Source of the DNA: Lama glama
Taxonomy: Eukaryota
Assembly: GCA_028534125.1 (NCBI GenBank)
Contig: CM052816.1
Span: 22,074,001-22,138,000, forward strand
Length of the DNA: 64,000 bases
Direction of reading: 5' to 3'
Position 1 is the first letter of the stretch. Each line of letters opens with the position of its first letter. Positions 461 through 64,000 of this stretch are shown here, one piece after another. The translations under genes and the position numbers were made by a program. Below the pieces are notes generated by a model, which was not told the DNA's origin, did no database searches, and saw only the letters and a list, made by a program, of their open reading frames with translations.

Positions 461-1311
461 CAGTGAAAACAAAACTGTATTTTTTGTAGTTCCTATCGAT
501 ATTTATTATGTCAGATACTTAAGATGCACATGGCATACTATAGTGTTGTATTAAAGTGGAAGGAGCAGCACTCTTGATTTGGTATAAGCTCCCATGAACA
601 AGACCCATAAACTTTCTGCACCTCATTTTTCTATTCTGTAAGATGAGTTTTTTCTCCTGCTACTTTATATTGTTGTGGTTATAGTTGTAAAAACTCTTTT
701 GAGTGCTGCAAAGCACTGTTGTAAGTTTTCATAATATTTTAATTAAAATGTGTTTTTCTTCCATGACCACTTTTTCTGACTGTTCTTAAAGTTTCTAATT
801 ACGGACCAGATTACTAAAATATAATTGTTGGGATTTATTATTTTCTGTTTTCTGTATAATTGAGATGTTAGTATATGTTAAATAAGCATATCAAGAGGAA
901 GAAAACTGAAAATTAGAGCAGTAGTAATAATAAAAATATTTTTTAAATGCACGCAAATTTGTATCTATTCAACAGATTTTTGTGTCTTTGTGTGTATGCC
1001 CTGGCCTGTAACTGTTCTTTACCATAAGGATTCATTAGTGAATCAGACACATATATATTCTTCTATAACAAAAAAGAACATTATTTAGTGTGAATTGACA
1101 GGTTATAGAACGTATATAAGAGTATTATACTTGTTGCCCCTTAATATTCACTGCTACTTTTGAAAATAATTACTGCATTTAGTGTGTATATTTTTAAACT
1201 CTAGGGAAAAATTTAGTGGTAGATCTGATCATTTTCTGTGGTGATTATAGCAATTTTGAAATAATTTAAGGTAAAATCTTTAAATTTTTTATTTTTTAAA
1301 AAATGTGTTAG

Positions 1312-1368
1312 ATTAATGTCTGCAAGAGCACGCTATGAGAGATACAGCGGCAATCAAGTTCTTTTTTG
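1312..1368 (+). CDS. RAPGEF6: RAPGEF6 exon 3 (57 nt): LMSARARYERYSGNQVLFC
   Basis: AG at 1310-1311 and GTAAGT at 1369; phase 2 to 2; continues the reading frame of the previous exon. Confidence 0.96.
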
Positions 1369-1449
1369 GTAAGTATTTCTATAATTTGCTTAATAATGTT
1401 TAAATTTGGATTTTAAGCATTGAAATTCATTTGATTCTGGAATAGTTTC

Positions 1450-2400
1450 TGTAGAGGAGATTGAAATACAGTCATAAACTGTGAAATATACATAGAGCTC
1501 ACAAAAGATGTACAGTGTAACAGGTTTCATAAATATATACACCTGTATAACTACTACCCAGTGAATATGTAGAACATTTCATCTCTTCAGAAGGCTCTTG
1601 TCACCTCTCTTGGAAGGGTAATCTAGTTCTAATGTCTATCACCATAGATTGGTTTTGCTTCTTTTTGAATTTCATATAGACAAAAATCTTTTGGTCAGGC
1701 TTTTTTCACTTCACAAATGTCTGAGATTCTTCTATGTTTTTGTATTCATTCTTTTTCATTGCTTTATAGTATGCAGTTACATGAAAGTAACATAATTTGT
1801 TTATCCTTTGCTCTATTAATTGATATTTGGGTTGTTGCCAGTTTTTTCCTATCATAAATAGTAAGTTTCTGAACATTTTGTTCATGTCTTTTTGTGTCCT
1901 TTGATTCATTCCTCTTAGGAATATTCCTAGGAATGAAAGGATTGAAAATGCATGTGCTCAAATTTAAGAGATTCTAACATTAATAGAATCTAACATACGT
2001 ATTTCATTTTATTATCTCATTGTGATTTAATTTTTGTTTCCATGCTTACTAATGATAATAAATGATTTTCATGTTTCTATAGGTTATTTGGATAGCTCCT
2101 TTATGAAATCCTGATTCAAATTTTTGACCATATTTTAGTTGAGTTGTCTTATTTCTATTGTTTTGTAGAAATTTATGAATTTGAATCCAAGTCCTATGTT
2201 GGATACATAAGTTGCAAATACTTTGTCCCACTGTGTGGCTTGCTTTTTCATTCTATTAATGGTGTGTTTTGAAGAAGAGAAATTTCTGATTTTCTCAGTT
2301 TTTCCCCTTGTGAACAAGGTTCTTGTGTTTAAAATATTTTTGCCCTCTTCAAGATTATGAGGATATTCTTCTCTGTTTTTTCTTTCAGAAGTTTTGTCAG
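1450..2400 (-). mobile_element. Old L1 (L1MC/ME-like) 3' region
   Basis: Degenerate L1 ORF2-end and 3'UTR motifs (agaacatttc, gatatttgggttgttgccagtttt, gcaaatactttgtccca). Confidence 0.7.
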
Positions 2401-2699
2401 CAGTGATCTCTTATTATATAGATTCAGCTGGTATAGAGGAATGGTGTTGACTTTAATGTTTCATTATGCATTGCATTTATCATTATATCTACAGTATTTA
2501 CTGGATTCATATGGTTAATAGCTATATATGTTTATTTGTTGATTCATTCACTAATTGCCTGCTATATGTCATACTTAGCCTGTTTATAGAATGGTGGGAA
2601 ATCACAGGATATATCCTTATGACCTTGTGTAGTAGGGGAGAGAAAGTTAATTAAAATTGCTACACAAATGAAGTGCTATCAAAGAAATACATACATTTA

Positions 2700-3860
2700 T
2701 AGATAATTGGAACAGAATTTAGAGTCCAAATATAAACCCTTAGGTTTATAAACAGTTTCTGGAATTTTTTAAAAAATGGTTTTGTAGCTAAGATCTGCAC
2801 ACAATGTGGGTATAACACAACTGAAGATTAAAAAGGAGCCACCAGTGAACAGTTTATTTTTGATGAAGGTGCTAAAGCATTTCATTGGGAAAACATAGTT
2901 TTTTCAACAAATGGTGCTGGGTTAATTGTGTATTTACATGTAAAAATGTTCATTTAGATCCTTATCTTACACACACACACACACATAAACTAATGAACTG
3001 TCAGTTTATACCAATTAGAATAGCTGCAGTTGTGGGGATGTGAAATGGGTAAAGGGGATGGATCACCTGTATGGTGATGGATGGAAACTGTATTTTTGAT
3101 AGCACACTATTGGGTATACAGAAGCAGAAATATAACATTGTACATGTGAAACTTATGTAGTATGAACCAGTGTTACCTCAGTAAAAAAATAAAAGAATGC
3201 TGCAGTCAAAAAGGTAGCCAATAACAAGTGTTCATGAGGATATGATGACATTTGGAATCCTAATATATTTGTGGTACAGATGCTAAATGGTATATATATT
3301 TAGCCACCTTAGGAAACAGTTTGGCAATTTCTTAAAATTTTACCATATGAGCCAGTAATTTTACTTTTACAAATTTACCCAGGGGAAATGAAAACCTATG
3401 TGCATACAGAGACTGTACACAAATGTTCATAGTAGCGCTATTCATACTAGCCTAAAACTGGAAAAAGTTTAAATGTCCTGTGAATGGATAGAGAAAATGC
3501 CCTATATTTGCATAGTGGAATACTATTTGGCGGTAAAAAGGAATAAAGTACTGATACACACTACAGCATGGACAAACCTTAAAAAATTAGGCTAAGTGGA
3601 AGAAGCAAGATAGAAACACAACATATTATATGATTGTATTTAAATGAACTGTCCAGGAAAAACAAATCTGTAGAGACAGAGCAGATTGTTGGGGGTAGGG
3701 ATTGACTGCAAACAAGGCGTAATAGGTCTCTTTGTGTTAATAGAAATGTTCTAAAACAGGATTGTGGTGATATTTGCACAGTTCTTTTCATAAATTTCAT
3801 AAAAGTCATTGAATTGTGCACTTAAAATGGGTGAATTTATGGTATGTAATTACACCTCAA
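2700..3860 (+). mobile_element. Old L1 3' end, interrupted at ~3031-3193 by a short younger L1 3' tail
   Basis: ttttcaacaaatggtgctgg, aatgttcatagtagcgcta and ggatTGTGGTGAT motifs. The inner insert ends in poly(A) and is flanked by AGAAT(A)GCTGCAGT at 3017-3030 and 3194-3206. Confidence 0.75.
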
Positions 3861-23470: not shown

Positions 23471-23970
23471 NNNNNNNNNNNNNNNNNNNNNNNNNNNNNN
23501 NNNNNNNNNNNNNNNNNNNNNNNNNNNNNNNNNNNNNNNNNNNNNNNNNNNNNNNNNNNNNNNNNNNNNNNNNNNNNNNNNNNNNNNNNNNNNNNNNNNN
23601 NNNNNNNNNNNNNNNNNNNNNNNNNNNNNNNNNNNNNNNNNNNNNNNNNNNNNNNNNNNNNNNNNNNNNNNNNNNNNNNNNNNNNNNNNNNNNNNNNNNN
23701 NNNNNNNNNNNNNNNNNNNNNNNNNNNNNNNNNNNNNNNNNNNNNNNNNNNNNNNNNNNNNNNNNNNNNNNNNNNNNNNNNNNNNNNNNNNNNNNNNNNN
23801 NNNNNNNNNNNNNNNNNNNNNNNNNNNNNNNNNNNNNNNNNNNNNNNNNNNNNNNNNNNNNNNNNNNNNNNNNNNNNNNNNNNNNNNNNNNNNNNNNNNN
23901 NNNNNNNNNNNNNNNNNNNNNNNNNNNNNNNNNNNNNNNNNNNNNNNNNNNNNNNNNNNNNNNNNNNNNN
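23471..23970. other. Assembly gap (500 N)
   Basis: Run of N; the round length suggests a nominal size. Confidence 1.
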
Positions 23971-47976: not shown

Positions 47977-48120
47977 GTAGAGAATTCCAAAGATAATGAA
48001 GATAGTATTTTACAAAGAGAAATTCCTGCTAGACAGTCTCGAAGAAGGTTTCGGAAAATTAACTATAAAGGAGAACGCCAAACCATTACTGATGATGTGG
48101 ATATTAACAGCTATCTTTCT
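47977..48120 (+). CDS. RAPGEF6: RAPGEF6 exon 6 (144 nt): VENSKDNEDSILQREIPARQSRRRFRKINYKGERQTITDDVDINSYLS
   Basis: tgtttcAG acceptor and GTAAGT donor at 48121; phase 0 to 0; the peptide matches recalled RAPGEF6. Confidence 0.97.
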
Positions 48121-48696: not shown

Positions 48697-49790
48697 CCAA
48701 AGGAAACCATAAACAAAACAAAAATGACAACCTATGGAATGGGAGAAAATTTTTGCAAAAGATGAAACTGACAAAGGCTTGATCTCCAGAATATATAAGC
48801 AGCTTATACGACTTTATAAGAAAAAAACAAACAACCCAATCCAAAAATGGGCAGAAGACCTAAACAAGCAATTCTCCAAGGAAGAAATACAAATGATCAA
48901 TAGACACATGAAAAAATGCTCAATATTGTTAATTATCAGGGAAATACAAATCAAAACTACAATGAGATATCACCTCACACCAGTCAGAATGGCCATCATT
49001 CAAAAGTCCACAAATGACAAATGCTGGAGAGGCTGTGGAGAAAAGGGAACCCTCCTACACTGCTGGTGGGAATGCAGGTTGGTGCAGCCGCTGTGGAAAA
49101 CAGTATGGAGAGTCCTCAAAAGACTAGGAATAGACTTACCATATGACCCAATCAGCCTGCTCCTGGGCATATATCCAGAAGGAACCCTACTTCAAAAAGA
49201 CACCTGCACCCCAATGTTCATAGCAGCACTATTTCCAATAGTCAAGACATGGGAAGAGCCTAAGTGTCCATCAAAAGATGACTGGATAAAGAAGAAATGG
49301 TATATTTATACAATGGAATACTATTCAGCCATAAAAACTGACAACATAACACTATTTGCAGCAACATGGATGCTCCTGGAGAATGTCATTCTAAGTGAAG
49401 TAAGCCAGAAAGAGAAAGAAAAATACCATATGAGATTGCTTATATGTGGAATCTAAAAAGAAAAACAAACAAACAAAATATAAATACAAAACAGAAACAG
49501 ACTCATAGACATAGAATACAAACTTGTGGTTGCCAAGGGGGTGGATGGTGGGAAGGGACAGACTAGGAGTTCAAAATTTGTAGATATTGACAGGCATATG
49601 CAGAATAGATAAACAAGATTATACTATATAGCACAGGGAAATATATACAAATCTGGTGGTAGTTCACAGTGGAAAAAATGTGATAATGAATATATGTATG
49701 TTCATGTATAACTGAAAAATTGTGCTTTACACTGGAAATTGACACAACATTGTAAACTGACTATAACTGAATAAAAAATGTTAAAAAAAA
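48697..49790 (+). mobile_element. Young 5'-truncated camelid L1, sense to the gene, with an uninterrupted 240-codon ORF2 C-terminal frame (48734-49456)
   Basis: [18 protein letters not shown] zinc-knuckle motif, complete 3'UTR, AATAAA at ~49770, poly(A). Confidence 0.92.
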
Positions 49791-54191: not shown

Positions 54192-55540
54192 TTGTAGCAA
54201 AAATCTAAATTAGTATTTGTGAAAGCATCCTGTAGATAACTGATTTTATAGCTATCATTAGGAGCTTTATTTCTTTTGTTCCACTGTCAGCAGTTCAGAG
54301 AGGGAGATCGGGAGGAATCATTCTTTAGATAATAGGAAATTTGATAATTTTCTCATCTGTAAACCATCTTCAACTTATTCTTGCTGGAGTGCTGAAGGTC
54401 AAAAATTCTTAAAAATGTAAAGAATATTTTGTTAACTGTTGTTTTCTTTATCTTAATTATGTTCAAACCAACACATCAAGCTTTTGTGAACATTAAAGAG
54501 TTTGCATGTGTTTTAAAATTACTTTCTAAATGCTTGGAATTGTTGAAAAAAACGATTTGTTCTTATGAAATATTTTCATAGTTTTGTCATACACATTGCT
54601 TCATGTAATGATGAGAACCATAATCTTAATGTGAAAGGTTTTTTTTAATGTTAAAAAGAGCCCTTCTGTAACTGTAATGATGTTTTTGAAACTCCTTTGG
54701 GTATTACTCTTAGAGCTTGCGACACTATTAAATGTCTTCGAATATTCTCAGTAATTTCAGAGCTTTTATCTTTGAGGAGGATGTATTTGATATTTAGAAA
54801 CAGCATGAAGGTGATTGGGTGCAATATTCAGTGAGTAGGATGGATAATTAAGCCAAGTAGAAGTAGTCTAGTATTTAGATGAGCCATCTGTCTTGAATTC
54901 TTCCTTCCCTAACTGTATGAGAGGGGACATTTTATCTGAACTCTTCATGCTTTGGTTGCTTTACTTCTAAAGATAAGGATGGTAGTAACTGGTCGGCCTG
55001 TCTTAACGTGGTTGCTGATTTACTTAGAACATGTGTGCATAGTCAAGGTCTAGTCAGTCAATGATATAGATGTCAAGATAGATTCTTCCTCTCAAGTGTT
55101 TGTGCCCTCCTCTCATATTACCCATGTCATTGCCTTAGTGTTCACTGCCATTCTTTCTCGAAGTGTTGTAATAACATGTCCCACGCTCCCCTAGGCAACT
55201 TTCACTGTAAAAGCAGTATTATTTCATTTTAAGAGATGTGAAGAATTTTTTAAGAATTGAAAAGTGTTGTATAATCTCTGTGTTAAGATATCTGCTTCAT
55301 CATTTTGTTTATTTGATTTTAAGATTTATTTTTTCTCTTTCTGGTTTCCCTACTCCTAGCATTATTCCTTAAATCTTCTCCTATCCCCTGCCACCTACTA
55401 GTATATTCATTTTTTTTTCAGTCCTAAAAGAATGTTTTAACAGTATTATTTCTATTAAACTCTGAACTCTTTTCATGGCCTACCACTATCTATCAGAAAT
55501 TTGAGTGATCTAGCCTTTAAGGATCTAGCGTATAGTCTAG

Positions 55541-55718
55541 ACCAGTTCTGTCTATTAGAACTTTCAGCAATGATGGAAATGTTTTATATCTCTCCTTTCG
55601 AAATTGATAGTATCTAGCCACACGTGGCTACACATTAAGCCACACTTATTAAAGTGTTGCTGCTATGACTAAGGACTTTAATTTTAAATTTAAAATTTTA
55701 ATTCTAATTTAAATAATT
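55541..55718. mobile_element. MER3/MER33-like hAT-Charlie MITE fragment
   Basis: cagttctgtctattagaactttcagcaatgatggaaatgttttatatct...tagccacacgtggcta...aattttaaatt. Confidence 0.7.
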
Positions 55719-57658
55719 TATATCATCTTATGGGAGGAGTCCATGATATTTTCTTGGGAGGGTTAGGTACATATCTCTGCATTCCTGTAATATTCCATGC
55801 ATATACCAGTGACCATTCATTACACCACCTTGTAATTATTCAGATGTCTGTCTCTCCTGTCTGAGTATATATGCCTTGAAAATGTGAACCATAATCATAT
55901 CCTTAGAGCATATTGCCTGTCAAAGAAAATAGAGTCCTTGGTTTTATATCAGCTTGTTTAGGTTCCCTTGTAACATTGGGCAAGTTATGTCACCTTTCTA
56001 AGTCTGTTTTTATATATAACCTATAGATGAGTGAAAGAATTAAGTAAGATAATATATATAAAGGGCTCTGCCTAATGTTTGATGCTCTAAAAAATCAAGC
56101 AGTAATGTCAGCAGCTTCTAGTTCTGTTGTTATTGAAAATACTCAAAAATATCTTTGTTCCTATTGCTAACAAAGTAACTTTATTTATCTATTATTGGAT
56201 ATAAAACATGTTTACCAAAATATGTAAATATATTAAGACAACTAAAAAAGGAGGCTGAAGAATCAAAGAGAGAATACAGATAAGAAAAATGGAAGCAGAA
56301 GTTAGAACAGATAAGAAAAATAGAATCAAAAGTTAGAACAACCAACAATCAACCAACTATGCCCTTCCCAATTTTCTTGTAGCCTAGACTCAAAATTGCT
56401 CAGTTTAAACAAAGCAATTTCTTTGTTTAACCTTACAAGATAAAGTAGTTACAAAGTGTATGGGAAACTCACTGAATGAGTTGCTTTATTAAATACAATG
56501 AATGACTAGAAGCCAATTAAATGATGACAGGAAAGATCTGCCAGAAACTGATGACTGGTTTGGAATTACTGACTTGAAGTTCTTTTTTCTGTTAGTAGTT
56601 ACGCAAGGTCAGTAGTTTAGCCTAAGTGTCTTAAAATGTAGTTTGCGAAATGGTTCTCGGGACATGGGAAGAAATAGTACAGTTTATATTTACATGTACT
56701 GTTATCCTCTTATATTTTTTGTATTTTTGTGTATATTTCATAATGAACACAAAACACTTTTGCTGGCAATACATGTATTAATTTATGAATAAATTACATA
56801 TGTTAGAAATGTAGCTCAGAAATACTTAATTTTTAAAGTACCGAGATTATATGATATCTCAATCCTTCTTCATTTGGCCCCTGTCTACCTTTTCAGCCTT
56901 CTAGCCCCATTATTTTGTTGGACATCCCTTCCTTTGGTTCTTCTTTCTCCCTGAAAGGTTCCTACAGGCATCTTTGTGTGATGTAATTCTGTCCTTTGAT
57001 AATTCAGCTTGAATCTTAACTCATTGTATCCAGAATAGCCTCCTGCCATATCCCCCTGTCATAAGTGTTGCTCAGCTCCCAAGACCCCATTCATCAGTGA
57101 ACTCTTTGAAGAAGTCTTTGGTCACATTTCTTGTTGTTAGAGCACACATTTACCCTCACTGGTCCCATAAGATGTTACACACACTTACATGCATTACGCT
57201 TATGTAATTATGCTCTATTCTGAAGATAACAGAAAACAAAATTAACAATTTTAGAATTTTTTAAATGTCTATTTTTATGTAAAGTTGTTGAATGTGTTTT
57301 ATTTTTTAAAGTATTTTTATTGAAGTATAGTCAATTTACAATGCTATGTCAATTTCTGGTGTACAGTACAATGCTTCAGTCATACAGTAGTACTTTGTTT
57401 TGCTCACCCTTTACATATTTTTGTTCTACCTAGTTCATTCTTCTGGCATAGTATGTTTGATTTTAGGCTCAGAAGTAACTAACGCAACAAGCATCTCTTT
57501 CTCATTTGCTCATTTTGTGCTTGCACCTTATGTTCCCAGTTCTCCTGTAGTGCTCCACGTTTTGTTTGCATTCAGAACATATAGAGAGAGATTGACATGT
57601 TTGTCAGTGCAGTTGAATGAGAGTCCAAGGCTGATTGCCAGCCCCACCTCATGGAGTG

Positions 57659-58019
57659 GGTCTTAGTCCGCTTAGGTTGTTATAATGAAATACCACAGAC
57701 TGAGTAGCTTAAAAACAACAGAAATTTATTTCTCAAATATCTGGAGGCTGGAAGTTCGAGATCAGGGTGCCAGCATGTTCAGATTCTCTTAAAGGCCTGC
57801 TTCTGCAATGTAGACTATTTACCTCTTGTTGTCTGTTCACATGGTGGAAAGGGCTGGGAACTCTGTGGGGCCTCTTTTATAAGGGCACTAATCCCAGTCA
57901 TGAGGGCTATTTGCTCATAACCTAATCACTTTCCACAAGCCCCACCTCCAAATATATCACCTTAAGGAATAGAACTTCAACATGAATTCTAGGGAGACAC
58001 AGACCTTCAGACCATTACA
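57659..58019 (-). mobile_element. MLT1A-like MaLR solo LTR
   Basis: tcttagtccgcttagg...aacaacagaaatttatttctca...ggaggctggaagttcgagatcagg...gggagacacagaccttcagaccattaca. Confidence 0.85.
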
Positions 58020-58206
58020 GCATCCCAGCATTTGTCTCAGGACTATCAATTTGTACTTCCAAAGAAACTAGGAGAGAGTAAGTTTAATCCTTGATATGGG
58101 TAGGTTTTTAAGAGCCAGATCCCTTAATTTGATGTAACAGAAAGACATTAAACTAGGAATCAGATTGTATGCATTCCTTTTCTATCTCAAGCACCAATTT
58201 GTAATG

Positions 58207-60430
58207 TTAACACATTGATCACCATGTCAGCAAAATATGGGTGACAGTTGTGTTTCCTCAGGGACCACATCACCCAGATATGGGTGACGCTTTCCTTCAT
58301 CCAGTTACACAGGTTTTTACAAGTAATTTACAGCAGCTTTCATTTGTAATACAGGTATTTAGTAGTAACAACATATATATGCAGATAGATAAAATATTAC
58401 CCATATTTTATATAATACAGAATTATATTATGTTACTTTCTGTGATATTTGCTGAAACAATTTATACAAAGCTGTGGTGTTCTACGACAACTAGGACAAT
58501 ATGTTCCTGTCTTTTTTACATTTTTTCTAGCTTCTTGTCTTTCAAAAGTTTACCTGCTTTTCTGGTAACAGAGGACGCACATTCTTCTGATTGTTTTGCT
58601 TTGTGGATTTTTTCTAATTTGTAAATTGTGAATCACTTCTCCTTTATCCCTGTGTATATTATTGGACCTATTATTTGGAGAATATAACCATTCCTTAACT
58701 AAAAGTTCCCTAAATTCTGGTATTTTAATTTTTTTTGTTTGGCTTTGCCTGGTGTACAATATGTGCATTTAACAACAGAAATCCCAATAAGTTGATGTAG
58801 TGCTAATTTCCAGTACCATTTGATACTTTTTTTTTGTAATGTCATTGCATTTGAAACCATCTGGTCAGTCTACTGATGCCACTATCCTTTATTATAATCA
58901 AGTATGGCTAGTGGCTTCATTTTTATAAGATATGGTAACGAGCAGGTGAATTTAAATTGGACATCATAATGGGTGCGTCTTCTGTTGAAAGTATTCTTAT
59001 GTTCCTAGCATCTTTCCATTTCAGAATGACAATTCCATTATCTCCTTGCCACACCATTTCATCTGTTTTTAGTGGATGGGACGTAACATCTTTTGGCATG
59101 AGCTTTTTATTATGCCAGATAGTCCCAACAACATGAGTTTTCACACTCAGAAATTTTAGGGCCAGTTTGTAGCTGGTGCAGAAGTTATCTACGTATGAGG
59201 TATGTCCTTCATTTAATAATTTTTCTGCAGGCTCACTGCAAACGTTTTGAGCTAATCTGATTTGCCTGACTCGGCTAGTCTCTCGTCCAGAATATATTTT
59301 TATCAACCATGCATAACTTTTTCGGTTGAACATAACTTAAATAATTTTATTCCATATTTTTGTGTCTTATTTGGTATATATTGTCTAAACATAAGCCTTC
59401 TCCTCCAGGGAACCATTATCTCATCGATTATGATATCTGGACACAGTGAAAAAAATTTTTTAGTAACTTTAGTCAAAGCATTAATCTATGGTAGTATTTT
59501 TCCAAGCCTATCACCTCTTTAAATCGTTTCATTATTTGCAGAGTGCAAATCTGGTAATAATTCAAAATGATTACAAGACATTATGGTACACAGCAATGTG
59601 GAATTTTAAAGGGGATCTTTTGACCAATATTTAGTCATAGATATTGGTTTCACTAGACCCATCCAAATTAGAAGAGCAAGGAATTTTTTAATTTCTTCAG
59701 AAATATGTTTCCATTTCTTTATTTGACTATATTTTGTATTTAGATGTTGAAGTAGTTTTTGTTCCACATATCTGTTTAACTCCTTTACTGGAAGGTTTAT
59801 TTCTTTGTCTAAAAATAGTGAGAGAACTTCACCCGGACTAATATCATGAGGTAATTCTGTCAGAAGTCCACTTTTTCCTGTGAATATAAACGACTTTTGT
59901 CTGCCAGTGAACTCTTTCCACTGAGTACTGTCCAGTGCGCCATCATCATCATCATCTGTTTCTTCCTCTTCTTCTACAACTGATTGTTCTAAAACCTCCT
60001 CAGTTTTTTCAACTTAAGTATCATCTTTCTCCTCGTTCTCTGAGCTTGAACTTGAGAACATTTATGTATCTTCTGACATGGATCACTTCATCATCACTAC
60101 TAGTGTTACTTTGAACTGTATTTTTACATTGCCTGATAACATGATAAGGATATGAAAAGTCACAGAGCGATACTTGAAAGATGTGTAGACTTTGAAACAC
60201 AGAATAAAACTGCCAAGCTGTCGAACAGAGCACACAAATGAAAAGAGTACCATTCTAAACAACTGCTTATCTATTGGTTCTAATCGGGTCATATATCACT
60301 CTTGAGCTAACACATATCAAAGTAACGCCACAGCTTTCCAGACTATTCCATTACTTGAATTTATTCTGTGTAGAATAATGACATTCCAAGGAGAAATAAA
60401 GCTCTGAAGAGGCTGAAAAGTTTAAAGAAT
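58207..60430 (-). mobile_element. piggyBac-superfamily DNA transposon fossil (Looper-like); right boundary uncertain
   Basis: TTAA at 58207-58210 followed by CACATTGA and two palindromic subterminal repeats; contains a decayed transposase frame. Confidence 0.85.
58433..60142 (-). pseudogene. Decayed piggyBac (DDE_Tnp_1_7 / PGBD4-like) transposase, ~570 codons
   Basis: Collinear motifs across frameshifts: acidic N-terminus (EEEEETDDDDD), EEIKKFLALLIWMGLVK, IIDEIMVPWRRRLMFRQYIPNKTQKYGIKLFKLC, GHTSYVDNFCTS, LKWKD, KPLAILDYNK..DQM, KWYWKL, and a C-terminal CVLC..YCPSC..LCINCFSKYH Cys-rich domain. Confidence 0.9.
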
Positions 60431-60624
60431 TTTTTTTTAAAACAATTCCTGTTATGTTGGGAGAACAAATAGGTTAATTATAAGCACATATATTGTTAGT
60501 GCGTCACACTGTGGTGAAGTGTGAATTTGGGCCCCGCAAGAAACCCAGTTCACAGTGGACAGTCTTAAGACCCTCAGTCCCTGCGTCATGTGTGGGAAGT
60601 GAACTAGCTACTAAGTCCCTTTTA

Positions 60625-60835
60625 ACTACAAACTGCCAACTTCTTTTGCTGTGTCCACATGGTGGAACAGGGCTAGGAAGCTCTCTGGGGCATTTTTGTG
60701 AGGGCCCTAATCCCAATCCCAGAGCCCTCGTGGCCTAATCACCTCCCAAATGCATTACCTCATAATACCATCGTTTTGGAAATCAGTATCTCAGCATAGG
60801 AATTTGGGAGGGACACAGACATTCAGAACATAACA
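60625..60835 (-). mobile_element. Partial MLT1A-like LTR
   Basis: ctgtgtccacatggtggaa...ctaatcacctcccaaa...gggacacagacattcagaacataaca aligns with the right half of 57659-58019. Confidence 0.8.
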
Positions 60836-63141
60836 GCACCAGTGAGCAAATAATTTAAACATTCAAGTCAAAATGGAGGAAGTATAAACACTCTTGTTGC
60901 ATATATTATCAGAATTTCAAGGTCTGACTGCTAAAGTCATAGTCACTGATTAAGTCACTGTCAGCAATTTGAACTTTATTTTATTTGTGGACTTGATGGA
61001 TTCTGATTGTGATTATATTTTGTGTTTGGTAAATACTTGTAGAATGAAAGGATGAGTGAATAAACAGTTTTCTATCACTTTTAAAGTAAGGGAGATTATG
61101 TAGCTGGAGGCTTTGCCAGTCTTAATTGTGTATGACAGTGAGTGCTGATCAGAATGCTACTGAGAAATTTGGAGCCGAACCTCTGAGAATCTGCAGCTTT
61201 TCAGTGTTGGTTGGTTGTCCTCTCACACTACTGCAAGCCAGACTGTTCTCTTCAGTTCTATTCTTTATAGTGTTTTGTACCTTAAAAACTGAAGAGGACT
61301 CTTCTTTTTTTATTCATGAGTATCTAGCATCTCCTAGGAGAATTCTGCTTCTCATTTCTCTTCTGGGAAATAATGTAGAATTCTCAGTAGAAAGTCTTGT
61401 ACCTAGTTACAGGGCCATGAGTCCACAAATGGACAGAGACAAATCAAAGGAGTGATACTGTGATCAAACTAAGTAGGACAAATGCCTGCCTAGAGTAGAT
61501 TTTTAAAAAATTTTTTGTGGAAAAAAATGCTAACTGTAGAAATGTAGAAAAATATAGAAGAATATTAAGGAAATAAATTTCCTATAATCCTCAAAACCAG
61601 AGATAACTAGTGTGGCTATTGATTTTTAAATGCATGTGTCTTGATTAAATCATTGAGATCTTAACTAATTTAGATAATGATGAATATTTAGTTATTTATC
61701 CTTCCTTTGTACTTCTTATGCAATTAAGTTTTCCCCTAAACATTATTTTAGTACTAATATTATGAGTATAACAAAGTATTCTCATGCGGCTTCCAGTTTT
61801 TCTTCTGTTACAACTTGTATGAATAAATCTGTATGTGACTGTGATGTTTTTCCTTAGGATTGATCCATAGGGTTTGAAAATTGATAGATAAATATTATAG
61901 TACTAGAAAATGCACTTATTTAAATTAGAGAAGTGATATGAAGATACTTTCTAATGTAATCCATGAATTTACAGATGGAGACCGTATTCTCAACAGTTTA
62001 ATTTTTTAAATTAAAGATTTCTTTTTTCAATCATGTTTACATATCTAGATACAGATATGTATTTTATTGAGCAAATCTTGATTTTTTGGTAAAAAATAAT
62101 ACATTATTTTAAAACTTTACAGTAGGTTTGCATATAGTGTGTAGCATACTTGACTGATTATTGTATATTCAGAGTTTATTTTTTTGTTTGTATGTGAGTT
62201 AGTGAAAAATGCCTGATACAACTGCACAATGTAGGGAGAAGTAGAAGCATGGTGGTGCCTTTTTATTGTTCCTTCGGTTTCACTTGTTCTAATTATAGAA
62301 GCTTACATCACCTTAGTTGATGAGGAAGGCTTCCCTCTCCCTCTTTGCCTTTTCTTCCTCCATCAGTCCCTAAGGATAGATCATATTTCATACTGCATAT
62401 GTGTCCTGCTGGTGGCTCTGACAGGATTTTCAACAGCGTGGTGCTGATCATTTAGTGGACATAGATGACAGTGTACTTCAGCACACTGTTTCTTACAGAA
62501 TAGGAAGAGAGTGTTAGTACTCTGGCTTCCCTTTCTTCAGAAAGGATGAGGAATACATTGGATGCAGTTTGAAAGCAGAAATTCCAGAGGGGCACCAGTA
62601 ATTAGAGTTAACCATGTCTGATAACTACAAGGATGCATTTCAGATGTTCAAGTTAAGCAAGGGGTTGGGGGAGGAATAGAAAAGCTTGCTATGATCCTTT
62701 AAAAGGGATTGTATGTTACCTCTGACATGGTAGAGTGTCATTTATTTGTTCATTTTCCAAAACAGTTAAAAGTATTTTTCCTACGTAAATCAGTACATTT
62801 AACAGTTTATATTTCAGAGATTAAATGCTTACAACTAAAATGCAGAAATTAATGGACTGCTTGTTTTATTTTGTAAAACTACATAATTTTCCTTTTGTTC
62901 CTCACCTTCTTTTGAGTTTGGCTTCTTTAAATTATGATTATATTATTTCTCTGTGCAAATGGGGAATAAACTGTATGACTCTGCCTGAGATTATTACAAA
63001 CCAGGTTTTTATTAATATTGGGGGTTTTTTTTGCTTTTCATAATGTCTGGAATGTAAATCTTCTGATATCTTACCTTAATCTATGATGATTTTTTTTCGT
63101 CTTTCAGTGATGTTACTTAATGAAAAAAGATACATTTATAG

Positions 63142-63169
63142 ATTATAAATCAATAAAAAAATTAAAAAA
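63142..63169 (+). mobile_element. Ultra-short L1 terminal insertion
   Basis: attataaatcaataaaaaaattaaaaaa matches the L1 3' terminus at 22311-22340 (reverse strand); TSD ATACATTTATAG at 63130-63141 and 63170-63181. Confidence 0.75.
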
Positions 63170-64000
63170 ATACATTTATAGTTTACTAACTGTTAAAACC
63201 TCATTGGCTTTCTATACAAGATGATTTCAGATGTTCTGCTTTGTCTTTTTGTTTAGAAATAATTTATAGTTATATTTTATATTAGTTTATATAATTTATA
63301 AAATAAATATATAAAATAATTCAATTATTTATATAGCATTTACATTTTTATAAAAATGTATAATGGTTTGAAGCTTTACAAAGCCAGCATACATTGATTG
63401 CTTTATTTGTTAGTAGTTTGAAAGACCTTTTTAAACCTAAAGATTTCATCGGTATGCCTTAGCATCACAGTATTTCATATTCAGAGGAAATGCATTCTTA
63501 AATGACTGTCCTTTGGTGTAGATTCCTAGTAATGTGTTGATCAGGGCATTCCCCTTTGTTGCAGTTACTTCATTTGAATTGGTGAGAATATGAAATGGAG
63601 ATCACAAGAAAATTTTTAAAGTACTGGAAGTGAAAAATCATTTATTCACATAATCATGTATTTTAGTTATTTGATAAATTACTGACTTCAAAATATGTTT
63701 GTTTTTTTTTTGTTCAGTAAGTAAGAGAGTAGTCATTATTTCTGAAGACACAATGTGGTATAGTGTATCATCAGAGTGGTGGTGGGTTCACCTGCTCAAT
63801 ATAGAATTTGGCCTGTTTGTTTGTTTCATGGTATTGTTGCACGGAGAGATTTTGCATGCTAGGCTTACCATACAATTCGCTAGAACGGCAGATTCTATGA
63901 GATGATTGGTAGAACAAGGAAAAGGATGAGGTCATCTTCACTTACAGGCCAATCTAAAGGAAAAGAGAGTTTGTTCTTTTGTGGTGGTGTTTGCTACAGT

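What the first reader, a model, noticed from the sequence alone, without database searches (positions are those of the whole stretch)
58433..60142. Apparently full-length piggyBac transposase fossil in a RAPGEF6 intron
Seen: joining minus-strand frames recovers every part of a piggyBac transposase in order. These are an acidic N-terminus, the first catalytic Asp motif (IIDE, ~59423), the second (VDNF, ~59187), a damaged third-Asp region before DQM (~58860) and a complete Cys/His C-terminal domain ending in TAA at 58433, about 570 codons in all. The ORF track shows only fragments of it. Established: piggyBac elements are scarce in non-bat mammals and mostly survive as short pieces (Looper, MER75, MER85) or domesticated PGBD genes. 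Inference: this is an unusually complete copy of an ancient autonomous element and could help reconstruct the ancestral transposase. Multiple stops and frameshifts show it is no longer coding.
Basis: partly seen in the sequence, partly recalled or inferred. Interest (0 to 1): 0.72.

Follow-up and report, generated by a model that had tools for sequence, protein, structure and literature searches.

The report
Insect-type piggyBac family in camelid genome
This intron holds a dead but complete piggyBac jumping gene, one of several long and many short copies in a genome that best matches alpaca; its closest relatives are in bees and wasps, so it likely entered the camel lineage by horizontal transfer tens of millions of years ago.

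Summary
Window 58207-60568 (minus strand) is a whole 2354-bp piggyBac between two TTAA sites. It has a nearly intact right terminal repeat, a damaged left one, and a transposase pseudogene matching 562 of 566 residues of a bee transposase at 56% identity, with 5 stops and 8 frameshifts. It lies antisense in a RAPGEF6 intron. The five exons match alpaca at 141 of 141 residues, the only exact match among 17 proteins compared. Contigs from four genomes show a family: roughly 5-10 other long copies and about 200 ends, including internally deleted derivatives. Copies differ by about 13%, or 7% each from their ancestor, against 27-31% for old repeat pairs in the window. Its transposase is sister to a hymenopteran clade, which suggests horizontal transfer. 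No other ungulate genome and no Dfam/Repbase library could be checked, so lineage restriction and novelty are inferred. Nine literature searches found no description.

The parts
58207..58210 (.). TTAA target-site duplication, right (3') end
   Evidence: Sequence; 17-22 contigs per run stop matching at 58207 with unrelated flanks, agreement about 0.4 (table 7)
58211..58223 (-). Right terminal inverted repeat, 13 bp, begins CAC; differs from the family's left repeat at two CpG-type positions
   Evidence: compared with the left-end consensus printed, table 7
58221..58290 (-). Two subterminal direct repeats; the inner one is an imperfect palindrome (18 of 24 self-complementary)
   Evidence: Family D16. 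The aberrant C-terminal tail of Habropoda protein P0195 matches this stretch best of 127,852 six-frame positions in the window (score 51, next 27)
58433..60142 (-). piggyBac transposase pseudogene, about 570 codons; stops at 60016, 59608, 59521, 59488, 58552; frameshifts near 60139, 60056, 59320, 58940, 58884, 58868, 58770, 58736
58442..58585 (-). C-terminal cysteine-rich domain, C-x2-C ... C-x2-C-x6-C-x2-C-x3-H; six Cys and the His kept, one stop inside
   Evidence: Alignment to Osmia and Polistes proteins; no Pfam hit at cut-off
60143..60544 (-). 5' untranslated and subterminal region of the element
   Evidence: Covered by paralogous contigs; deletion joints 58303>60495, 58316>60421, 58324>60358 and 58631>60280 end here
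60545..60564 (-). Left terminus, damaged in this copy (about 9 bp shorter than in other copies; most of the terminal repeat lost)
   Evidence: 10-11 contigs per run leave the window sequence at 60544 and agree on one 30-nt continuation that ends in the inverted repeat (table 7); manual comparison
60565..60568 (.). TTAA target-site duplication, left (5') end
   Evidence: Sequence; lies where the family's left end should finish
47977..48120 (+). Last RAPGEF6 exon in the window; the element lies antisense in the intron that follows (context)

Best explanation
This is a dead, full-length copy of a cut-and-paste piggyBac transposon whose family left several long and many short copies in this genome, and it likely reached the ancestor of camelids by horizontal transfer from an arthropod-associated source roughly 30-55 million years ago. 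Shown: the TTAA-flanked 2354-bp element, the broken 570-codon transposase, the multi-copy family with internal-deletion derivatives, about 7% decay per copy, and nearest homologues in Hymenoptera. Inferred from piggyBac biology: the transposase bound the CAC-starting terminal repeats and the palindromic subterminal repeats through its cysteine-rich domain, cut with the DDD core, and pasted copies into TTAA sites; short derivatives rode on the same enzyme and outnumbered it until the family died. Inferred from divergence: a single burst after camelids split from other even-toed ungulates. This copy has decayed neutrally and, being antisense to RAPGEF6, cannot act as a CSB-PGBD3-style exon trap.
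For: Identity: Pfam DDE_Tnp_1_7; 56% over residues 4-565 of an Osmia transposase. Ends: TTAA on both sides; sharp boundary at 58207 and shared left terminus in paralogous contigs. Family: 245-287 contigs laid per run in 4 of 4 runs; body depth about 7.6 times that of the locus's own contigs in X1; 41-48 contigs at position 58237 with about 170-240 times that depth; joints that skip 1648-2191 bp. Age: 11 paralogous pieces differ by 10-15%, pooled 12.9%, 7.1% per copy after correction; simulation gives 5.2 stops at 7% against 5 seen, and 9.9-12 at 15-20%; four old repeat pairs in the window differ by 27-31%. Host: 141/141 residues identical only to Vicugna pacos among 17 proteins; all six bat proteins differ; 20 runs of six organism labels in 10 studies hold 76-87% of its words. 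Origin: all named relatives are arthropod; sister to an 11-row clade with 10 named hymenopteran rows, SH-aLRT 99; a bee element shares the right subterminal repeats; piggyBat scores 83 bits against 232 for Osmia.
Against: No other ungulate or mammal genome could be searched, so absence from pig, cow, whale or horse is untested. The 80% likeness floor hides older copies and biases the age young. Only 11 paralog rows were visible (1150 rows not shown) and some are the same locus in different runs. The tool warns that contig depth is not copy number. No close donor was found: the branch to the window is 0.58 long, of which about 0.15-0.2 is decay. The tree is a quick one without mammalian piggyBac or PGBD rows, and 14 residues of the window row were read in the wrong frame. 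The host call rests on single-residue differences. Camelid neutral rates were not measured here. Four piggyBac-class MITE families per camelid genome are already listed, unnamed, in PMC8605555 Table 8.
Confidence: 0.62

Rival explanations
1. The family entered earlier, in the ancestor of all even-toed ungulates or of several laurasiatherian orders, and looks young only because camelid DNA changes slowly and older copies were filtered out.
For: Camels split from other artiodactyls 55-60 Mya (PMC3514880); at a rate near 1.3e-9 per site per year (assumed, not measured) 7.1% gives about 55 My. The 80% floor censors old copies. An unnamed Logan protein, P0187, is a decayed copy of the same family from an unknown organism.
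Against: Paralog differences cluster at 10-15% and do not pile up at the 20% floor; the stop count independently fits 7%; old repeats in the same window are about 2.4-2.8 times more diverged. No such ungulate-wide piggyBac appeared.
Confidence: 0.22
2. It is a well-preserved copy of an already catalogued eutherian-wide piggyBac such as Looper, inherited vertically from the placental ancestor.
For: Looper, MER75 and MER85 are the catalogued human piggyBacs (PMC5753468); Looper has 531 annotated human copies and none intact (PMC4625184). No Looper sequence could be obtained, so a direct comparison was not made.
Against: Divergence among copies is less than half that of old repeats here. MER75 and MER85 derive from PGBD4 and PGBD3, which are primate-restricted (PMC2268245, PMC5381638). 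No mammalian PGBD protein was among the 43 hits or the 120 listed.
Confidence: 0.1
3. The copy was kept by selection, as a domesticated gene or regulatory element of RAPGEF6.
For: It is full length and retains two of three catalytic Asp and the whole Cys/His pattern.
Against: 5 stops and 8 frameshifts, the number of stops expected under neutral decay; antisense to the host gene; no Rfam match in 55000-64000.
Confidence: 0.04
4. It is insect DNA misassembled into a mammalian contig.
For: Nearest homologues are insect proteins.
Against: It is decayed rather than intact, is bounded by TTAA sites, has diverged paralogues in the same runs, and is held near-identically by 20 runs from 10 studies.
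Confidence: 0.01

Closest known systems
Hymenopteran piggyBac-like elements annotated 'PGBD4-like' (Osmia bicornis XP_029054531.2, Athalia rosae XP_048508002.1, Polistes canadensis XP_014614752.1, Habropoda laboriosa XP_017795068.1, Anthophora, Dinoponera)
   Same: Same domain order and length (about 566-570 aa), 49-57% identity even after decay, same Cys/His spacing, sister group in the tree, shared right subterminal repeats with the Habropoda element. CAC-starting terminal repeats are common in bee elements (PMC10140906).
   Different: It sits in a mammal, is dead, and lies outside the sampled hymenopteran clade, so none of these is the donor.
piggyBac-like elements of structural group SG4 (Bouallegue et al. 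2017, PMC5381638)
   Same: TTAA duplication, 13-bp terminal repeats starting with C, palindromic subterminal repeats that serve as both direct and inverted repeats.
   Different: The left subterminal repeats are degenerate in this copy, so the group assignment rests on the right end.
piggyBat (piggyBac1_ML), piggyBac2_ML/piggyBac2_Mm and piggyBac1_Mm of vesper bats and mouse lemur
   Same: Lineage-restricted mammalian piggyBac invasions with few autonomous copies and many short derivatives, attributed to horizontal transfer (PMC2997546, PMC10162687).
   Different: Different host order; only a distant match to piggyBat (83 bits over the N-terminal half); older and dead; far fewer copies than the lemur derivatives (943-3,780). 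Sequences of the ML2 and Mm elements were not available for comparison.
Looper, MER75, MER85, PGBD1-5 (human piggyBac relics and genes)
   Same: Same superfamily; TTAA sites; intronic location recalls PGBD3 in CSB.
   Different: Much less diverged among copies than old repeats here; antisense to the host gene; not coding; no mammalian PGBD among the listed homologues. Looper itself was not compared.

Membership tests
piggyBac superfamily (autonomous element) | DDE_Tnp_1_7 transposase of about 550-600 aa | tested here: met
piggyBac superfamily (autonomous element) | TTAA target-site duplication at both ends | tested here: met
   58207-58210 and 60565-60568; boundary at 58207 confirmed by paralog flanks
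piggyBac superfamily (autonomous element) | 12-19 bp terminal inverted repeats starting with C | tested here: met
   Right repeat in the window matches the left-end consensus of paralogous contigs at 11 of 13; the left repeat of this copy is damaged
piggyBac superfamily (autonomous element) | Catalytic DDD triad | tested here: inconclusive
   First and second Asp and the fourth conserved Asp present; third altered in this copy though present in the homologues
piggyBac superfamily (autonomous element) | C-terminal cysteine-rich domain | tested here: met
   Six Cys and His align with Osmia and Polistes; Pfam zinc-finger model not hit at cut-off
piggyBac superfamily (autonomous element) | Dispersed copies showing past transposition | tested here: met
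   17-22 contigs per run with unrelated flanks at the right boundary; deletion derivatives
Looper (eutherian piggyBac) | End-to-end DNA match to the Looper consensus | not testable with these tools
   No Dfam/Repbase library; the supplement of PMC12324416 gave 873 characters and no sequence
Looper (eutherian piggyBac) | Divergence like other old eutherian repeats | tested here: not met
   12.9% between copies against 27-31% for four old pairs in the window; censored at 20%
Domesticated PGBD genes | Single copy with intact frame under purifying selection | tested here: not met
   Multi-copy, 5 stops, 8 frameshifts
piggyBat / piggyBac1_ML | Near-identical transposase | tested here: not met
   Only a distant match to PDB 9c0f (E 2.1e-22, 83 bits)
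Horizontally transferred transposon | Absent from related lineages and from the orthologous site | not testable with these tools
   No eukaryote genomes held
Horizontally transferred transposon | Closest relatives in a distant host group | tested here: met
   limited to proteins, so dead copies in other mammals would not show

The most novel reading that the evidence does not exclude
An uncatalogued piggyBac family jumped from an insect-associated source into the stem lineage of camels and llamas in the Eocene, multiplied to a couple of hundred copies including very short (about 83 bp) derivatives, and died. It would be an independent piggyBac invasion of a plant-eating ungulate lineage, outside the bats, lemurs and tenrecs where such invasions are recorded, and its insertions would be camelid-specific markers.
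Probability: 0.45. Interest if true: 0.62.

Novelty: new member of a known kind. Interest (0 to 1): 0.48.

Why it matters
Zoonomia counted over 200 horizontally transferred DNA transposons in bats but only 11 in other placental lineages (bioRxiv 2023.03.09.531574) and linked recent DNA-transposon gain to carnivory (bioRxiv 2022.12.28.522108). That curation focused on repeats under 4% divergence, so a 7% family confined to camelids could have been missed. If confirmed, this adds a piggyBac invasion in a herbivorous ungulate line with an insect-type transposase, gives a full-length anchor copy with both ends for defining the family, and offers presence/absence markers for early camelid history. 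The mechanism itself is ordinary piggyBac biology and this copy has no sign of function.

Tried and rejected
The genome search on the own genome: none held. A scan of metagenome contigs for TTAA plus the 13-bp terminal repeat gave 50 loci; 0 of 50 had a transposase match or extended similarity, so all are treated as chance. The repeat finder did not report the terminal inverted repeat among the 25 longest of 290 pairs, because the left end is damaged. Looper sequence sought in PMC12324416's supplement: no usable text. Camelid repeat libraries of PMC8605555 could not be read; they may already hold the short derivatives. Earlier findings of this scan: nothing by sequence, words or place. Exon 47977-48120 alone did not identify the host (identical in many laurasiatherians); five exons together did better. 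An Atlas look-up of an L1 fragment gave no host information. No tRNA genes and no tRNA-type SINE box pair by a crude pattern; weak support for a camelid host, not relied on. In one search the two flanking bins had no contig cover while the element did; the tool drops human-like contigs silently, so this could hint that flanks are shared with human and the element is not, but a hole proves nothing and it is not used as evidence. The careful tree did not finish; the quick tree is reported. No structure prediction was run, since sequence evidence settled the identity.

Full report
Observation. Four frame segments were scanned against Pfam with stops read as X: two hit DDE_Tnp_1_7 above the curated cut-off (profile positions 2-167, E 6.7e-27; 167-279, E 3.2e-12) and two had no significant hit. 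A protein search with the N-terminal segment returned 43 relatives among 1239 candidates, all DDE_Tnp_1_7 proteins, led by Osmia, Athalia, Habropoda, Polistes and Dufourea 'PGBD4-like' proteins at 52-59% identity. A frameshift-aware alignment to the Osmia protein covers residues 4-565 of 566 with 311 of 552 identical, 5 stops and 7 frameshifts; Polistes and Dufourea proteins give the same 5 stops and 7 frameshifts. The homologues start MF-x-R, and the window has five bases between ATG and that Arg codon, an eighth frameshift. The first two catalytic Asp, the Asp of DQM and the whole Cys/His pattern survive; the third catalytic Asp is altered.

Ends. Downstream, at 58207-58223, lie TTAA and a 13-bp repeat starting CAC, then two subterminal repeats, one an imperfect palindrome. 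Contigs of four public DNA runs were laid on 58050-60630 at 80% likeness. In every run 17-22 contigs stop at 58207 with unrelated flanks, which fixes the right boundary. In every run 10-11 contigs leave the window at 60544 and agree on a 30-base continuation that ends in the inverted copy of the right repeat. The window has a shortened version of that continuation followed by TTAA at 60565-60568. The element therefore spans 2354 bp between two TTAA sites, with the left terminus damaged in this copy. This fits the structure described for piggyBac-like elements with palindromic subterminal repeats (PMC5381638, passages).

Family. laid 245-287 contigs per run; in X1, 32 were at 99% or more, 39 at 95-99, 64 at 90-95 and 136 under 90. 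The locus's own contigs have depth about 14.6 in X1, the 22 internal bins average 111 (about 7.6-fold), and position 58237 carries 2888 over 48 contigs (about 200-fold; 170-240-fold in the other runs). The tool warns that depth is not copy number, so 'several long copies, about 200 ends' is rough. Joints skipping 1648-2191 bp appear in all four runs and mark internally deleted copies. In 5-8 contigs per run the right end up to 58263 runs straight into the left terminus, implying a derivative of about 83 bp.

Age. Eleven paralogous rows of table 8 (of 32 shown, 1150 not shown; I dropped the near-identical rows of the locus itself and exact repeats across runs, and some kept rows overlap) differ from the window by 10.2-15.4%, pooled 12.9%, or 7.1% per copy after Jukes-Cantor correction. 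Independently, simulated neutral decay of a 570-codon frame gives 5.2 stops at 7%, 6.9 at 10% and 9.9-12 at 15-20%; five are seen. Five repeat pairs in the window were aligned: four old pairs, including the two LTR-like copies flanking the element, differ by 27-31%, and one younger L1 pair by 17%; such pairs may belong to different subfamilies, which would inflate them. At the general mammalian rate of 2.2e-9 (bioRxiv 2022.12.28.522108, section 11) 7.1% is 32 My; a slower camelid rate, which I assume and did not measure, would stretch it to about 55 My. Camels split from other artiodactyls 55-60 Mya (PMC3514880, abstract and passages). The 80% floor biases the estimate young.

Host. Five RAPGEF6 exons lie on the + strand between 106 and 48120, so the element is antisense in the following intron. 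Over 141 residues only Vicugna pacos matches fully among 17 proteins compared; Camelus, peccary, a dolphin and one Hipposideros species each differ by one residue, and all six bat proteins differ. Twenty runs of about 2.0-2.15 Gb, with six organism labels in ten studies, hold 76-87% of the element's words. A South American camelid is the best reading; it rests on few residues. The L1 3' ends also look camelid to me, from recall only.

Origin. Named hits are all arthropod; many hits are unnamed. A quick IQ-TREE of 39 rows (38 chosen homologues of those fetched, plus the window read through with X) puts the window sister to an 11-row clade of Osmia, Athalia, Polistes, Dinoponera, Anthophora, Habropoda, Mischocyttarus and one unnamed row, SH-aLRT 99. 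The tree has no mammalian rows, no bootstrap, and 14 window residues were in the wrong frame. The end branch is 0.58, so no close donor is sampled. With about 15% of residues changed by decay the living ancestor would have been about 63-66% identical to the Osmia protein, which is hard to reconcile with vertical descent since the insect-vertebrate split (inference). A Habropoda gene model that runs into its element's 3' end matches the window's right subterminal repeats better than any other of 127,852 positions, so the DNA ends are related too. piggyBat and T. ni piggyBac are distant (83 and 27 bits). The search of 1.84 billion representatives found nothing above 63%; the 63% hit P0187 matches in several frames and is a decayed copy of the same family from an unnamed source.

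Mechanism. Shown: anatomy, family, decay. Inferred from piggyBac biology: binding of terminal and subterminal repeats, excision and insertion at TTAA, and mobilisation of short derivatives in trans. Inferred from divergence and kinship: one horizontal entry near the base of camelids. This copy is dead and antisense, so the exon-trap route of PGBD3 (PMC2268245, passages) is closed; Rfam found nothing in 55000-64000.

What is known. Lineage-restricted mammalian piggyBacs are described from bats, mouse lemur and, partly, tenrec (PMC2997546, parts 2-3 of 5; PMC10162687, passages and section 7). Human relics are Looper, MER75 and MER85 (PMC5753468, PMC4625184, PMC12324416; passages). A camelid repeat survey lists four piggyBac-class MITE families per genome without names or ages (PMC8605555, passages); its supplementary libraries could not be read and may hold this family. 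Bee elements often start CAC (PMC10140906, passages). Zoonomia reports 11 transfers outside bats (bioRxiv 2023.03.09.531574, passages; its table S4 was not seen) and curated mainly repeats under 4%. Nine searches (listings only unless named above) showed no paper describing a camelid piggyBac. The library lacks most subscription papers, and Dfam and Repbase were not searchable.

Verdict. A real, complete piggyBac fossil and the anchor of a modest family, most likely a camelid-lineage horizontal invasion of an insect-type element (0.62). New member of a known kind; interest 0.48, rising to about 0.62 if the orthologous sites are empty in other ungulates and no library holds it.

Noticed in passing
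window 58207-58263 joined to the family's left terminus (table 7): 5-8 contigs per run imply a very short non-autonomous derivative of about 83 bp, keeping 53 bp of the right end and 30 bp of the left end; it may mark the minimal sequence needed for mobilisation.
   Followed up: partly
protein P0195 (Habropoda laboriosa XP_017795068.1), last 24 residues: The annotated C-terminus appears to be a translation of the element's 3' subterminal repeats rather than real protein; it matches window 58301-58230.
   Followed up: partly
protein P0187 (unnamed, Logan): A called 'protein' that is a frameshifted copy of this same family, matching three frames of the window; organism unknown, so it could extend the family's host range.
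   Followed up: partly
window 57660-58030 and 60630-60842: Two LTR-like repeats (MLT1/MaLR type by recall) flank the element in the same orientation, 27% different over 208 columns; the upstream one is cut short about 60 bp before the element. They could be mistaken for the element's own ends.
   Followed up: partly
window 23471-23970: A 500-N assembly gap inside a GC-rich stretch that looks like an L1 5' region.
   Followed up: no
window 21800-52950: Many L1 3' fragments in both orientations, 65-86% alike, and no tRNA-type SINE found by a crude pattern; a 242-codon L1 ORF2-like open frame at 48728-49456.
   Followed up: partly
P0001, P0002 (Osmia bicornis, Athalia rosae): A bee and a sawfly carry transposases 87% identical, which suggests this piggyBac clade also moves horizontally among Hymenoptera.
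   Followed up: no
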